Positions 1-63,845 of a stretch of 64,000 nucleotides of DNA are shown one piece after another. The DNA lies in NCBI GenBank assembly GCA_964016885.1, contig OZ024742.1, positions 228,842,001 through 228,906,000 on the forward strand, read 5' to 3'. This stretch comes from Eledone cirrhosa (lineage: Eukaryota). The notes under the pieces were generated by a model, which searched no databases, was not told the origin of the DNA, and was given only the letters and a program-made list of their open reading frames with translations. How positions within the stretch are numbered: the first letter of the stretch is position 1; each line of letters opens with the position of its first letter. The position numbers and the translations under genes were made by a program.

Positions 1-12
1 AACCGAAGGAGC

Positions 13-200
13 CAAATAGTAATAATAATATATTTGAACACTAAAATCCAAAGAGGGCTCGATAAGGATAAATATATATAAAATATATAAGAACCGTAGA
101 GCAAATATTTATTAAAATAACAGATTAAAGTTTAAGCAAAGAATCGCTGCTTTCATACTTAACAGGATCTTCTGAAACTAACAAAGTCAATCTGTGAAAG
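13..200 (-). mobile_element. Small non-coding (TA)n-associated element, family B (other copies 28278-28690, 33541-33724, fragment ~58255-58293)
   Basis: The sequence GGGCTCGATAAGGATA...AAAGAATCGCTGCTTTCA...GGATCTTCTGAAAC recurs at about 28500-28580 and 33541-33660. The other copies are fold-back palindromes flanked by (TA)n. Strand is inferred from a CAGAAGA...GAAA HHR-like motif and the 3' motif. Confidence 0.6.
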
Positions 201-1127
201 CACTCGCCATAGGTATACAAATACACGCACGTACACACAAAAAAACCCCCAAAACCCACAAGCACATACAGAACCCACGCAACGCCTGTACCCGCACGCA
301 TACGAAATGTATAACCTGTAAAATAAGCCCCCATATTAACTGTAAAACTAGAAATGTAGTATATAGCATAAGATGTACTGAAGGACAATGTAGAGACAAA
401 AATATAGTGTACATAGGTGAGACAGCTCGTAGTGTAGGGGAACGGATAAATGAACACTGGCGAGATCTTCAAGATAGTAAAGAATCATCTGTACTCTACC
501 AACATGCTAAAATAGAACATAAGGGTAAATTAGAGAACATAGAAATAAAAATAGAATCTACAACCAGAAAAGACGCAATGTTTAGACAAATGACAGAGGC
601 AATAAACATAAAAGAATTACAACCAAAATTAAATAGAAAATATGAGTGGAACAGCAACATCACAACTTACAATTAAGGACAAAATGAAAACACACACGCA
701 CACAGAACAAACAATCAGCCGGTAACATGTAAAGAAACAAATAAATAAACGAATATAAACACACACAGATACCCGGATGTGGCGCATGCGCAGACTGAGC
801 ACACAACACACACACAGAAACAAAATGGCGTAGGACAGAACAAAGGAGAGGCACAAAAACAAAGAAAAGAATCCCCAGTCACTGAAGAGGTCACAGAATG
901 TGTGACCAAAGAACTTTGACAATATATAAACAACCATCTGGTTGTGGAACCACCAACCAACCGGAAATTTATAAATTCCTCAATTTATAAATTTATTATA
1001 ATAAATTGAAGTGAAAGCAACTGGTACGTGTGTTTCTTATTGGCAACATGACCCTCCCAAAGTATAACAATATCGGTTTCAACACACGTTTTCAGATAAA
1101 GAATCTTGCTAAACAAATTCAGAAACG

Positions 1128-1128
<1 letters not shown>
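194..1128 (+). mobile_element. 3' fragment of a Penelope-like retroelement (Neptune/Nematis-like): GIY-YIG endonuclease plus 3' UTR/pLTR
   Basis: ORF 194-676 contains CxxC..NCKTRNVVYSIRC..YIGETARSVGERINEHW..E A INI..P.LN, a PLE GIY-YIG domain. It is highly similar to 34659-35450 (minus strand) and ends at a (TA)n tract. Confidence 0.9.
878..920 (+). ncRNA. Type I hammerhead ribozyme-like motif in the PLE 3' UTR (G12 missing in this copy)
   Basis: gtca-CTGAAGA-ggtcaca(gaatg)tgtgacc-AAA-gaac-TT-tgac. Stem I is gtca/tgac and stem II is 7 bp. Homologous to the motif at 41354-41395. Confidence 0.7.
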
Positions 1129-1180
<52 letters not shown>

Positions 1181-1306
1181 AATATAGACATAGAATATTC
1201 GAAAATATTCTGTATGTTTATAATAAACATTTTGAAGACCTAATCGCTATAGAATAGAATACGTCACGTATTACAATTAGATTCTCGATAAAAGCAAGGG
1301 AAGTAA

Positions 1307-2898
1307 GTCTACGCGTTTCATTCTTGTTAGAATTCATCAGGACTACATATCCAGTGCTTTTATCGAGAATGACACAGCTAGAGACTTATAGAATACTTAG
1401 CTGTGTACAGGAACTGGTTTGAAAGAGCGGTTGCCGGTCCGGCAGAAATTAGAAATTGGAATAAATGCTCTGAAATAGCGATATATATGTGAATATAGAC
1501 ATAGAATATTCGAAAATATTCTGTATGTTTATAATAAACATTTTGAAGACCTAATCGCTATAGAATAGAATACGTCACGTATTACAATTAGATTCTCGAT
1601 AAAAGCAAGGGAAGTAAGTCTACGCGTTTCATTCTTGTTAGAATTCATCAGGACTACATATCCAGTGCTTTTATCGAGAATGACACAGCTAGAGACTTAT
1701 AGAATACTTAGCTGTGTACAGGAACTGGTTTGAAAGAGCGGTTGCCGGTCCGGCAGAAATTAGAAATTGGAATAAATGCTCTGAAATAGCGATATATATG
1801 TGAATATAGACATAGAATATTCGAAAATATTCTGTATGTTTATAATAAACATTTTGAAGACCTAATCGCTATAGAATAGAATACGTCACGTATTACAATT
1901 AGATTCTCGATAAAAGCAAGGGAAGTAAGTCTACGCGTTTCATTCTTGTTAGAATTCATCAGGACTACATATCCAGTGCTTTTATCGAGAATGACACAGC
2001 TAGAGACTTATAGAATACTTAGCTGTGTACAGGAACTGGTTTGAAAGAGCGGTTGCCGGTCCGGCAGAAATTAGAAATTGGAATAAATGCTCTGAAATAG
2101 CGATATATATGTGAATATAGACATAGAATATTCGAAAATATTCTGTATGTTTATAATAAACATTTTGAAGACCTAATCGCTATAGAATAGAATACGTCAC
2201 GTATTACAATTAGATTCTCGATAAAAGCAAGGGAAGTAAGTCTACGCGTTTCATTCTTGTTAGAATTCATCAGGACTACATATCCAGTGCTTTTATCGAG
2301 AATGACACAGCTAGAGACTTATAGAATACTTAGCTGTGTACAGGAACTGGTTTGAAAGAGCGGTTGCCGGTCCGGCAGAAATTAGAAATTGGAATAAATG
2401 CTCTGAAATAGCGATATATATGTGAATATAGACATAGAATATTCGAAAATATTCTGTATGTTTATAATAAACATTTTGAAGACCTAATCGCTATAGAATA
2501 GAATACGTCACGTATTACAATTAGATTCTCGATAAAAGCAAGGGAAGTAAGTCTACGCGTTTCATTCTTGTTAGAATTCATCAGGACTACATATCCAGTG
2601 CTTTTATCGAGAATGACACAGCTAGAGACTTATAGAATACTTAGCTGTGTACAGGAACTGGTTTGAAAGAGCGGTTGCCGGTCCGGCAGAAATTAGAAAT
2701 TGGAATAAATGCTCTGAAATAGCGATATATATGTGAATATAGACATAGAATATTCGAAAATATTCTGTATGTTTATAATAAACATTTTGAAGACCTAATC
2801 GCTATAGAATAGAATACGTCACGTATTACAATTAGATTCTCGATAAAAGCAAGGGAAGTAAGTCTACGCGTTTCATTCTTGTTAGAATTCATCAGGAC
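1307..2898 (-). ncRNA. Six minimal type I hammerhead ribozymes (37 nt each, starting at 1307, 1618, 1929, 2240, 2551, 2862)
   Basis: Reverse complement of gtc-CTGATGA-attct(aaca)agaat-GAAA-CGCG-TA-gac in each unit. Confidence 0.9.
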
Positions 2899-3081
2899 TA
2901 CATATCCAGTGCTTTTATCGAGAATGACACAGCTAGAGACTTATAGAATACTTAGCTGTGTACAGGAACTGGTTTGAAAGAGCGGTTGCCGGTCCCGCTC
3001 TTTCAAACCAGTTCCTGTACACAGCTAAGTATTCTATAAGTCTCTAGCTGTGTCATTCTCGATAAAAGCACTGGATATGTA

Positions 3082-4673
3082 GTCCTGATGAATTCTAACA
3101 AGAATGAAACGCGTAGACTTACTTCCCTTGCTTTTATCGAGAATCTAATTGTAATACGTGACGTATTCTATTCTATAGCGATTAGGTCTTCAAAATGTTT
3201 ATTATAAACATACAGAATATTTTCGAATATTCTATGTCTATATTCACATATATATCGCTATTTCAGAGCATTTATTCCAATTTCTAATTTCTGCCGGACC
3301 GGCAACCGCTCTTTCAAACCAGTTCCTGTACACAGCTAAGTATTCTATAAGTCTCTAGCTGTGTCATTCTCGATAAAAGCACTGGATATGTAGTCCTGAT
3401 GAATTCTAACAAGAATGAAACGCGTAGACTTACTTCCCTTGCTTTTATCGAGAATCTAATTGTAATACGTGACGTATTCTATTCTATAGCGATTAGGTCT
3501 TCAAAATGTTTATTATAAACATACAGAATATTTTCGAATATTCTATGTCTATATTCACATATATATCGCTATTTCAGAGCATTTATTCCAATTTCTAATT
3601 TCTGCCGGACCGGCAACCGCTCTTTCAAACCAGTTCCTGTACACAGCTAAGTATTCTATAAGTCTCTAGCTGTGTCATTCTCGATAAAAGCACTGGATAT
3701 GTAGTCCTGATGAATTCTAACAAGAATGAAACGCGTAGACTTACTTCCCTTGCTTTTATCGAGAATCTAATTGTAATACGTGACGTATTCTATTCTATAG
3801 CGATTAGGTCTTCAAAATGTTTATTATAAACATACAGAATATTTTCGAATATTCTATGTCTATATTCACATATATATCGCTATTTCAGAGCATTTATTCC
3901 AATTTCTAATTTCTGCCGGACCGGCAACCGCTCTTTCAAACCAGTTCCTGTACACAGCTAAGTATTCTATAAGTCTCTAGCTGTGTCATTCTCGATAAAA
4001 GCACTGGATATGTAGTCCTGATGAATTCTAACAAGAATGAAACGCGTAGACTTACTTCCCTTGCTTTTATCGAGAATCTAATTGTAATACGTGACGTATT
4101 CTATTCTATAGCGATTAGGTCTTCAAAATGTTTATTATAAACATACAGAATATTTTCGAATATTCTATGTCTATATTCACATATATATCGCTATTTCAGA
4201 GCATTTATTCCAATTTCTAATTTCTGCCGGACCGGCAACCGCTCTTTCAAACCAGTTCCTGTACACAGCTAAGTATTCTATAAGTCTCTAGCTGTGTCAT
4301 TCTCGATAAAAGCACTGGATATGTAGTCCTGATGAATTCTAACAAGAATGAAACGCGTAGACTTACTTCCCTTGCTTTTATCGAGAATCTAATTGTAATA
4401 CGTGACGTATTCTATTCTATAGCGATTAGGTCTTCAAAATGTTTATTATAAACATACAGAATATTTTCGAATATTCTATGTCTATATTCACATATATATC
4501 GCTATTTCAGAGCATTTATTCCAATTTCTAATTTCTGCCGGACCGGCAACCGCTCTTTCAAACCAGTTCCTGTACACAGCTAAGTATTCTATAAGTCTCT
4601 AGCTGTGTCATTCTCGATAAAAGCACTGGATATGTAGTCCTGATGAATTCTAACAAGAATGAAACGCGTAGAC
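3082..4673 (+). ncRNA. Six minimal type I hammerhead ribozymes (starting at 3082, 3393, 3704, 4015, 4326, 4637)
   Basis: gtc-CTGATGA-attct(aaca)agaat-GAAA-CGCG-TA-gac. It has the canonical CUGAUGA/GAAA core, a GUA cleavage triplet and a palindromic ACGCGU stem III, and is enclosed by a 16-bp stem ATTCTCGATAAAAGCA/TGCTTTTATCGAGAAT. Confidence 0.92.
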
Positions 4674-4956
4674 TTACTTCCCTTGCTTTTATCGAGAATC
4701 TAATTGTAATACGTGACGTATTCTATTCTATAGCGATTAGGTCTTCAAAATGTTTATTATAAACATACAGAATATTTTCGAATATTCTATGTCTATATTC
4801 ACATATATATCGCTATTTCAGAGCATTTATTCCAATATATATATATATATATAAAATTGAAAAAGTGAAGAATAACATGGTCAACAGTACAACAAACTAT
4901 CCATAATAAGTACTCACAACCTCTAACTGGATTACCTATAACGATATTTTGTTATC

Positions 4957-5020
<64 letters not shown>

Positions 5021-32562: not shown

Positions 32563-32912
<350 letters not shown>

Positions 32913-62328: not shown

Positions 62329-63845
62329 TTTTCAGTTATAATATAAAGCGCTCGACAATACAGGAACAGAATATATGTAAAAGTTCTATTTAAATTGTTG
62401 GAATACAACAAGCAAATATTTTTATAACTGATATAAAGCACTCAACAAATAATTGAAGTAAAAATACGATATTAACAAATGGAAACTATATTTATAAAAC
62501 AATATTTATTTCATTATACATATTTCAAGGACATCAAGTTAAATTATGGTGTGCTTTCATCAGATAAAATATAATATAGAGCAGTTTTATAAATAAATAT
62601 TGACATACCCTTAAAGAATGCAACCATTACTGTTGGAAGCTCCCGGATAGTGGAGTTATAGCTTTAATTATACTATTAGGTAAGTTAGTATTGGATATTT
62701 TTAAATAAGCCGTTGGGTTACGGAGAAAGAGAAAGAGAGAGAGAGAGAGAGAAGAACAACAGAGAGATAAAAAAGAGAGAGAGAAGAACAACAGAGAGAA
62801 AAAAACAGAGAGAAAAAAGAAAGAGAAAAAAAAAGAGAGAGAGAGAGTGAAACTCTAAGTCATATCTTGTTGAGTTATCTTAACATTTGAGATGAAATGA
62901 ATAAATAAAAATAGAAATGTTAATAATCATGAATGAAAGATACATATATAATATGAGAAATGTATCCATTGTTTAAATATGATTAAATGTTAATCAGTTA
63001 AAATGTTAATCAGTTAAAATATTGAGATCAATACATTAAAAATTGAGATCTATAAATTAATAAATCTATATATTATTATTAAGACTATATATTACTAAAA
63101 AACCTATATGTTATTAGAAGAATGTAACACACATACACACGCAAATATACATACATATAAATATATATACACACGTATAAATATATATATATAGCCATCT
63201 ACGTATATAATATATACATACAAAATATAAAGGATTTTTTAATTTAAGATATAGGAATCTTATAAAATCAGAGAAGTCATTTCTATGTAATATCAAAGCA
63301 GCAAGAACGAAAATTACGTTATTTAGTTATATAAATGTTACAATTGTTAAGATATTAAAGGAAATTTTATGTTATACACACTTTATGTTATTCTATAAAT
63401 TTTTTTATATATAAGTTTTATAAGATTACCTGTTATGTAGTTATGACTGTTATTATATGTCTATTTGTCACGAACCTTGGGATAATCCCTATAAATAAGT
63501 GCAATCGAATTGTATGCATATACACATATATATAAATACACAATTCCCTCATATACATACATATACGTACCCAAAACAAATAGGTAGATATGCATCACAT
63601 ATACATATACATACAGATACACATGCGCGCATTAAACATATGTACATGTATATCAATACACACACATATATATATATACACACATATATAGAGAGAAACA
63701 TATATAAATACAGTACATAGTATAATTGAAGTACATAAAATACAAAAGAATTATATTACGATTTGGAAATATAATTATAAGCAATATAACTTTAAAACAA
63801 TATAACTTTAAAAATATTATAGAATAGAATATTTTTACTCTATAG

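What the first reader, a model, noticed from the sequence alone, without database searches (positions are those of the whole stretch)
2980..3000. Giant 3.67-kb palindrome: two retrozyme concatemers joined head-to-head, with both 3' ends in (TA)n
Seen: arms of about 1.81 kb are separated by only 9 nt, and the ribozyme sense points outward in both. The left arm ends exactly at the unit's own internal ATATATAT (1171-1178); the right arm ends about 25 nt further round the unit (4836), so the two ends are different circular permutations. Inference: (TA)n is self-complementary, so both nicked strands could prime reverse transcription (twin priming) on a circular template, with the internal (AU)4 annealing to the target. 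Read-through transcription would give a 1.8-kb dsRNA hairpin (a possible siRNA or ADAR substrate), and the DNA could extrude a cruciform.
Basis: partly seen in the sequence, partly recalled or inferred. Interest (0 to 1): 0.8.

Follow-up and report, generated by a model that had tools for sequence, protein, structure and literature searches.

The report
Retrozyme palindrome primed from both ends
This 3.7-kb mirror-image array of a 311-base repeat carrying a predicted self-cutting RNA motif is one of over a thousand similar insertions in an animal genome, most of them back to back with two different fixed outer ends, which likely means a Penelope-type transposon enzyme copied one RNA from both sides of a DNA cut.

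Summary
The palindrome is as described: perfect arms 1170-2985 and 2995-4810, a 9-nt spacer, twelve type I hammerhead motifs pointing outward. It is the family rule, not a one-off: 80 of 97 loci examined on contig C1 are head-to-head. The outer ends are not free permutations but two fixed sites about 26-40 nt apart, and all 77 scored two-armed loci pair one of each. Both arms share one haplotype in 44 of 46 loci, either arm can be the longer, and seams show 0-5 nt microhomology. This is the known Penelope footprint (inverted copy, tail at one end) on a non-coding retrozyme, and fits two primers on one RNA better than self-priming. A monomer circle is likely but not universal: three loci carry unit-specific variants in register in both arms. 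This locus belongs to a small equal-arm class (5 of 76 others, 1.4 expected), so fold-back is not excluded here. Its own seam has no read support, no RNA was seen, and no helper was identified. The scan reached the same reading earlier at other loci of this genome.

The parts
1170..2995 (-). Left arm: 5.9 tandem copies of the 311-nt retrozyme unit; RNA 3' end at site A (internal AT run, unit position 261)
2995..4836 (+). Right arm: 5.9 tandem copies of the same unit; RNA 3' end at site B (unit position 287)
2986..2995 (.). Seam: 9-nt spacer in register with the left arm, plus one shared base (C2995); lies in the unit's 6-bp GC hairpin
   Evidence: unique in the assembly
4811..4836 (+). 26-nt tail present at one outer end only (site A to site B)
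   Evidence: compare Penelope tail, PMC8557442 passages
1130..1177 (.). Left part of the (TA)n target tract, (AT)24, the last 8 nt shared with the unit
4835..4853 (.). Right part of the (TA)n target tract, (AT)9, the first 2 nt shared with the unit
3079..3122 (+). Type I hammerhead motif (core CUGAUGA...GAAA...GUA, predicted cut after 3115; palindromic helix III; one bulge in helix I)
   Evidence: only a sub-threshold Rfam HH9 match
3390..3433 (+). Hammerhead motif, identical copy
3701..3744 (+). Hammerhead motif, identical copy
4012..4055 (+). Hammerhead motif, identical copy
4323..4366 (+). Hammerhead motif, identical copy
4634..4677 (+). Hammerhead motif, identical copy
2858..2901 (-). Hammerhead motif, identical copy
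2547..2590 (-). Hammerhead motif, identical copy
2236..2279 (-). Hammerhead motif, identical copy
1925..1968 (-). Hammerhead motif, identical copy
1614..1657 (-). Hammerhead motif, identical copy
1303..1346 (-). Hammerhead motif, identical copy
1..1129 (+). Left flank, not part of the insertion: 3' part of a Penelope-like element (GIY-YIG frame 182-676, then pseudo-LTR and tail) that ends naturally in the (TA)n tract
4854..4959 (.). Right flank, not part of the insertion: short piece of another dispersed repeat bounded by (TA)n

Best explanation
This is a head-to-head pair of tandem arrays of a 311-nt hammerhead-bearing, non-coding repeat inside a (TA)n tract, most likely made when a Penelope-type reverse transcriptase-endonuclease cut both strands and extended both DNA ends on the same RNA from two fixed start sites. 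Shown: the geometry, the two fixed ends, their strict one-of-each pairing, haplotype sharing between arms, free arm lengths and short microhomology at seams. Inferred: (1) the unit is transcribed, self-cleaves as a dimer and is usually circularised; (2) a dimeric Penelope-type protein binds the conserved region around unit positions 180-290 and cuts (TA)n on both strands; (3) one 3' end primes at site A, where up to 8-10 nt of pairing with the AU run is possible, the other at site B, with at most 2-3 nt; (4) both enzymes run several laps (5.9 each here) and stop, here both at the unit's GC hairpin; (5) the two cDNA 3' ends are joined by microhomology (1 nt here) and each templates the other's second strand. 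A monomer circle is the usual template at about 55% odds; a multimer served in at least some events.
For: First 8 loci of an unbiased hammerhead search are all minus-then-plus arrays. Pairing of end coordinates on C1: 50 of 50 pairs are A+B, none A+A or B+B; after fetching, 77 of 77 scored two-armed loci. Arm A is longer by >60 nt in 31 loci, arm B in 37, near equal in 9, so in general neither arm is a copy bounded by the other. Same majority haplotype in both arms in 44 of 46 loci, against a mean of 5.8 and a maximum of 15 in 20,000 permutations; 15 haplotypes seen once are fixed in both arms. In L134 both arms read two units of one haplotype and then another, in register from their 3' ends; L099 and L057 share single-unit variants in register: same RNA molecule. 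Seam overlap of 2 nt or more in 22 of 39 seams without inserted bases (49 parsed) against 18% for random joins. Seam ends do not pile up at the ribozyme cut (2 of 154, 5.4 expected). Sense A>G makes up 9 of 29 locus-fixed variants but 5 of 68 single-unit variants (Fisher p=0.004), as expected of an edited RNA template. The neighbouring GIY-YIG element shows the same layout, an inverted arm 56 nt shorter, in 6 of 19 copies. A Penelope protein cuts and extends both strands, starts at two adjacent RNA sites and is predicted to be a dimer (PMC11167929).
Against: This locus is one of a small equal-arm, symmetric-seam class (5 of 76 others, 1.4 expected, p=0.012) that fold-back would also give. No record listed bridges this seam. 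No autonomous element sharing the unit's end region was found: the neighbouring family has no similarity beyond a 17-nt AT-rich match. Three loci (L057, L099, L134) do not fit a monomer circle, L084 switches haplotype within one arm, and L044 and L058 share variants out of register. 17 of 97 loci have one visible arm. One neighbouring-family locus (L123/L132) has two long ends. Loci were mostly found by end patterns, so loci with other ends on both sides would be missed. In vitro, the start site did not differ between strands (PMC11167929). A>G against T>C alone is not significant (9 versus 4, p=0.07). Target-site duplication cannot be read in (TA)n.
Confidence: 0.75

Rival explanations
1. Fold-back or self-priming: one primed cDNA (or an antisense RNA, as proposed for Penelope elements) folds back at the unit's hairpin and copies itself; the copy is captured by the other target end at the internal AT run.
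For: This locus has arms of equal unit number and a seam at the unit's GC hairpin; equal-arm loci are in excess (5 of 76, 1.4 expected); L049 has a neat 4-bp, 3-nt-loop seam and L057 a mirrored single-unit variant. Self-priming is the published proposal (PMC3846280 passages).
Against: 68 of 77 loci have unequal arms, in both directions; symmetric seams overall are near chance (12 within 20 nt, 10.0 expected). Here each arm holds sequence the mirror lacks: the spacer is in register with arm A, the 26-nt tail is on arm B, so fold-back needs a further event such as a flip of the spacer by recombination between arms.
Confidence: 0.12
2. Both ends prime, but on a long uncleaved linear transcript of an older array, or on two RNA molecules from one source locus, with no circle involved.
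For: In-register unit-specific variants in L134, L099 and L057, and a haplotype switch in L084. Uncleaved RNA was the main substrate in vitro (PMC11167929).
Against: 22 haplotypes among 46 loci, each fixed in all units, call for a frequent single-unit bottleneck; only 8 of 72 minority calls are shared in register; circular monomers are shown for other animal retrozymes (PMC7229834 passages).
Confidence: 0.09
3. Assembly or library artefact: a fold-back read or chimera.
For: No mismatch in 3,667 nt; no listed contig bridges this seam.
Against: A fold-back read mirrors the flank and the end; here the flanks are unrelated and the ends differ. 80 of 97 loci are inverted with scattered seams. Read-derived contigs show four other minus-to-plus joints at depth 2.6-14.8 (possibly the sample the assembly came from).
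Confidence: 0.03
4. Two independent insertions into the same (TA)n tract, or later DNA rearrangement of a single array.
For: (TA)n tracts here collect many elements: both flanks are other repeats.
Against: No (TA)n at the seam; strict A+B pairing and shared rare haplotypes across loci.
Confidence: 0.01

Closest known systems
Metazoan non-LTR retrozymes (Cervera and de la Pena 2020, PMC7229834, passages; Li, Clavereau and Pollet 2026, 10.64898/2026.07.22.740005, parts 1-3 of 5)
   Same: Short low-GC tandem unit with one type I hammerhead, no coding frame of note, dispersed multimers, proposed mobilisation by Penelope-like elements.
   Different: The word 'inverted' does not occur in the main text of the 2020 paper and once in the 2026 preprint (not in the parts read). 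Neither, as read, describes head-to-head arms, two fixed 3' ends or (TA)n targeting. Circles and cleavage are shown there and untested here.
Endonuclease-containing Penelope-like elements (Craig et al. 2021, PMC8557442, passages; Arkhipova et al. 2013, PMC3846280, passages)
   Same: Inverted 5'-truncated copy joined head-to-head, a 30-40 nt tail often at one end only, (TA)n targets that hide the target duplication.
   Different: No RT or endonuclease; arms are long concatemers of one small unit. The published reading of the inversion is self-priming; the arm statistics here point to two primers.
Poseidon element of Anolis in vitro (Frangieh et al. 2024, PMC11167929, parts 1-2 of 4)
   Same: Both strands cut and extended, AT-rich target, two adjacent internal start sites that define the tail, little or no primer homology, predicted dimer.
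   Different: No strand difference in start site was seen in vitro; here every scored insertion uses one site of each kind. Different element and a non-coding template.
L1 twin priming (PMC2837659, search listing and start of abstract only; details recalled)
   Same: Both target ends prime cDNA, giving an inversion with a microhomology seam.
   Different: Recalled: in L1 the second primer lands far inside the RNA, the arms cover different sequence, and only a minority of insertions invert. Here the primers start about 26-40 nt apart, copy the same sequence and give a palindrome in most insertions.

Membership tests
Metazoan non-LTR retrozyme | Tandem units of a few hundred nt, GC below 50% | tested here: met
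   311-nt unit, 5.9 + 5.9 copies, GC about 35%
Metazoan non-LTR retrozyme | One complete type I hammerhead in each unit (core, helix I about 6 bp, helix II about 4 bp, short palindromic helix III) | tested here: met
   Core and helices read directly against the description in PMC4209133 (passages). No Rfam match at gathering score; HH9 at 17.8 bits only
Metazoan non-LTR retrozyme | No LTR, primer-binding site or protein-coding capacity; dispersed copies | tested here: met
   Insertion is unit sequence end to end; 1,144 exact matches to the 40-nt hammerhead pattern; primer-binding site not searched separately
Metazoan non-LTR retrozyme | Self-cleavage of the RNA | not testable with these tools
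   Motif intact; activity needs an assay
Metazoan non-LTR retrozyme | Accumulates as circular RNA | tested here: inconclusive
   Indirect only: locus-fixed haplotypes and no seam pile-up at the cut site favour it; three loci do not fit a monomer circle
Insertion by Penelope-like machinery | Inverted 5'-truncated copy joined head-to-head | tested here: met
   80 of 97 loci on C1 and this locus
Insertion by Penelope-like machinery | Tail of about 30-40 nt at one end only | tested here: met
   26 nt here, about 26-40 nt in the family; 77 of 77 scored loci
Insertion by Penelope-like machinery | AT-rich or (TA)n target | tested here: met
   Both ends in TA runs in the 77 loci printed; partly by ascertainment
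Insertion by Penelope-like machinery | Target-site duplication | tested here: inconclusive
   Hidden by (TA)n
Insertion by Penelope-like machinery | An autonomous partner sharing the end region | tested here: inconclusive
   Only the neighbouring family was compared, with no similarity; related non-coding families share unit positions 181-287 at 73-84%
Autonomous Penelope-like element | Open frame for RT and GIY-YIG endonuclease | tested here: not met
   The insertion has none; the GIY-YIG frame at 182-676 belongs to the flanking element

The most novel reading that the evidence does not exclude
Penelope-type integration is an obligately two-ended, asymmetric reaction: a protein dimer loads both cut DNA ends onto one RNA at two fixed sites, one end per site, and both enzymes chase each other round a ribozyme-made circle. 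This would explain in one step the long-unexplained inverted copies and one-sided tail of Penelope elements, show how animal retrozymes move, and make these elements a steady source of kilobase perfect palindromes; equal-arm loci such as this one would be the cases in which both enzymes stalled together at one RNA hairpin.
Probability: 0.45. Interest if true: 0.78.

Novelty: new variant of a known kind. Interest (0 to 1): 0.6.

Why it matters
How Penelope-like elements make their tandem and inverted copies is stated as an open question (PMC8557442), and their role in moving animal retrozymes is proposed without a mechanism (PMC7229834; 10.64898/2026.07.22.740005). A young family with more than a thousand insertions records the reaction in detail: which end starts where, whether one RNA serves both ends, and how the seam closes. 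That gives sharp predictions for an existing in vitro system (PMC11167929). It also means that this genome keeps gaining long, nearly perfect palindromes, which by general knowledge (recalled) are unstable in DNA and give double-stranded RNA when transcribed. The single locus adds little beyond being a clean, very young, unusually symmetric example.

Tried and rejected
(1) Idea that the insertion splits a Penelope reading frame, so that (TA)n was added at insertion: no joined empty site in the genome, all 19 other copies of the left element end at the same point in (TA)n, and the right flank is another repeat. Rejected; the tract most likely pre-existed. (2) DNA similarity search with the unit found nothing because common words are skipped; patterns were used. 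(3) Rfam at gathering score: no match; the miRNA hits at the seam reflect the hairpin only. (5) Read support for this seam: no listed record bridges it, with 319 records not shown; the question stays open. (6) Whether L134's mosaic has a parent array elsewhere was not tested; the question stays open. (7) Helper element: neighbouring family only, no similarity. (8) Target-site duplication unreadable. (9) Fold of the end region gave no clear structure placing sites A and B. (10) Rows dropped before the count of 77: L082 (local duplicate of L051's insertion), L103 and L148 (an end cut by the stretch edge or by N), L149/L150 (one 15-kb locus in two pieces, B+A by coordinates), and 17 loci with one visible arm. 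(11) Literature searches for retrozymes with inverted or head-to-head arms, and for twin priming in Penelope elements, listed no paper making that case; the library lacks most subscription papers and I read no supplements, which may show such insertions.

Full report
Observation. The arms 1170-2985 and 2995-4810 are complementary without a mismatch over 1,816 nt around a 9-nt spacer, and both arms are exact slices of one 311-nt unit. Twelve identical hammerhead cores point outward. The motif has the full core, a 6-bp helix I with one bulge, a 5-bp helix II and a palindromic helix III, which matches the dimer-active metazoan type I form described in PMC4209133 (passages); the surrounding 81 nt fold at z = -5.0. 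Rfam gives no match at gathering score and a weak HH9 match. The left arm ends in the unit's internal AT run (site A, unit position 261); the right arm runs 26 nt further (site B, 287). The seam shares one base and lies in the unit's own GC hairpin; it occurs once in the assembly.

Surroundings. The left flank is the 3' part of a Penelope-like element with a GIY-YIG frame (Pfam E = 1e-4, at the curated cut-off). All 19 other copies fetched end at the same point in (TA)n, so the tract is that element's own target and most likely older than the palindrome. The right flank is another dispersed repeat.

The family. The genome (3.0 Gb) has 1,144 exact matches to this haplotype's 40-nt hammerhead pattern; the first 100 listed fall in 8 loci, all minus-then-plus. 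End patterns give 645 site-A and 624 site-B matches on the forward strand alone (reverse counts are inflated by double listing), so there are more than about 1,200 insertions. On the first 153.5 Mb of C1, 76 A ends and 68 B ends formed 50 outward-facing pairs, all A+B, none A+A or B+B. I fetched all 50 pairs, all 44 unpaired ends and 3 further loci. Of these 97 loci, 80 are two-armed head-to-head and 17 show one arm; of the 17, one abuts an assembly gap and one has a remnant B arm of about 12 nt. After dropping a local duplicate, two loci with a cut end and one 15-kb locus held in two pieces, 76 loci plus this one were scored: 77 of 77 are A+B. Exact ends: 90 of 174 at unit positions 239-261 (41 at 252, 31 at 261; those before about 250 mostly reflect variants) and 84 at 277-294 (59 at 287). 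Most loci were ascertained by end patterns; the 7 loci with both ends resolved are also A+B.

Two primers or fold-back. If one arm were a copy of the other it could not be the longer one in both directions; arm A exceeds arm B by more than 60 nt in 31 loci, B exceeds A in 37, and 9 are near equal. Seams are spread round the unit and avoid no-priming explanations such as the ribozyme cut site (2 of 154 ends within 5 nt, 5.4 expected, BLAST coordinates). Of 49 seams parsed, 10 have inserted bases; 22 of the other 39 overlap by 2 nt or more, against 18% for random joins. This is what two separately primed cDNAs joined end to end would leave.

One template. In 46 loci with at least two copies of every position in both arms, 44 share the majority haplotype (permutation mean 5.8, maximum 15 of 20,000); there are 22 haplotypes, and 15 seen once are fixed in both arms (inner 3.2 kb of each arm). 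The two exceptions are informative. In L134 both arms carry two units of one haplotype at their outer ends and another haplotype inside. L099 and L057 share a single-unit variant at the same distance from sites A and B. In all, 8 of 72 minority calls at 62,743 compared sites are shared in register, in three loci (outer 3.4 kb). This is good evidence that both ends read the same RNA molecule in the same register, and also that in these events the template was not a plain monomer circle. L084 switches haplotype inside one arm only; L044 and L058 share a variant out of register, which I cannot explain without gene conversion. The many locus-fixed haplotypes still require a frequent single-unit bottleneck, for which a circle is the simplest source (circles shown in coral, mussel and axolotl; PMC7229834, passages).

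RNA intermediate. Sense A>G accounts for 9 of 29 locus-fixed variants but 5 of 68 single-unit variants (p = 0.004); none has a 5' G; against T>C the excess is 9 to 4 (p = 0.07). This fits A-to-I editing of the template (neighbour preference recalled) and is suggestive only. An earlier scan note gave the lead.

What is special here. This locus has equal unit numbers and a near-symmetric seam. Five of the 76 others do too, against 1.4 expected (p = 0.012), while symmetric seams as such are near chance (12 versus 10.0). Two readings remain: both enzymes stalled together, here at the GC hairpin, or a fold-back route makes a minority of insertions. In this locus the spacer belongs to arm A and the tail to arm B, so plain fold-back from either end fails without a further event. 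I put fold-back at about 12%.

Artefact. A fold-back read would mirror flank and end; both differ here. Contigs from public runs show four other minus-to-plus joints at depth 2.6-14.8, in runs that may be the assembly's own sample; none listed bridges this seam, and 319 records were not shown. Direct read support for this seam is therefore lacking.

Comparison. The unit meets the sequence criteria of a metazoan non-LTR retrozyme; cleavage and circles are untested. The insertion shows the known Penelope footprint: inverted truncated copy, tail at one end, (TA)n target (PMC8557442; PMC3846280). The neighbouring GIY-YIG family shows it too, with an inverted arm ending 56 nt short in 6 of 19 copies, one copy with a different inverted end and one with two long ends. 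That family shares no sequence with the unit, so the helper is unidentified; related non-coding families share unit positions 181-287 at 73-84%, and one (L157) also has an A-like and a B-like end, which marks this region as the likely recognition signal. In vitro, a Penelope protein cuts and extends both strands from two adjacent start sites (PMC11167929). Not found in five searches: inverted two-armed retrozyme insertions, the strict one-of-each rule, or two-primer synthesis as the cause of Penelope inversions. No supplements were read.

Earlier notes. I stated my reading before opening them. Several notes on this genome describe the same family and related families with the same model; they are not independent support.

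Verdict. Real with high probability; a new variant of a known kind. Interest 0.6, carried by the family-wide rule that makes the Penelope insertion mechanism testable.

Noticed in passing
window 875-915: The flanking Penelope-like element carries its own hammerhead-like motif; this copy has C at 907 where copy L132 has the G of the GAAA core, so it is predicted inactive.
   Followed up: partly
L131:6755-7975 (just upstream of the window, minus strand): A different Penelope-like RT fragment lies head-to-head against the flanking element; whether it is one insertion or two was not tested.
   Followed up: no
L134 (G000:C1:136719247-136726180): Both arms start with two units of one haplotype and continue with another, in register from the 3' ends: a direct record of one non-monomer template, or a joint template switch.
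   Followed up: partly
L044 (G000:C1:43586648-43594058): Two variants recur exactly seven units apart in one arm: a multimer circle, a later duplication or an assembly effect.
   Followed up: no
L031 (G000:C1:1239463-1244730): The seam is doubled, with a short plus-minus-plus stutter, as if joining was tried twice.
   Followed up: no
L051 and L082 (G000:C1:56.26 Mb): The same insertion, with the same seam, appears twice about 3 kb apart.
   Followed up: no
L063, L071, L143, L157: Related non-coding families share unit positions 181-287 at 73-84%; L157 is two-armed with matching ends.
   Followed up: partly
window 4854-4959: Piece of another repeat family whose copies also show inverted segments and (TA)n ends.
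   Followed up: partly
window 2880-2995, run X4: A 340-nt contig from a differently labelled organism and study matches 116 nt without difference and continues as the unit: the family is probably not confined to this genome.
   Followed up: no
window 32846-32900, 52826, 54990, 58487, 62563: Other hammerhead-like motifs of at least two further families, including an inverted pair near 32850.
   Followed up: no
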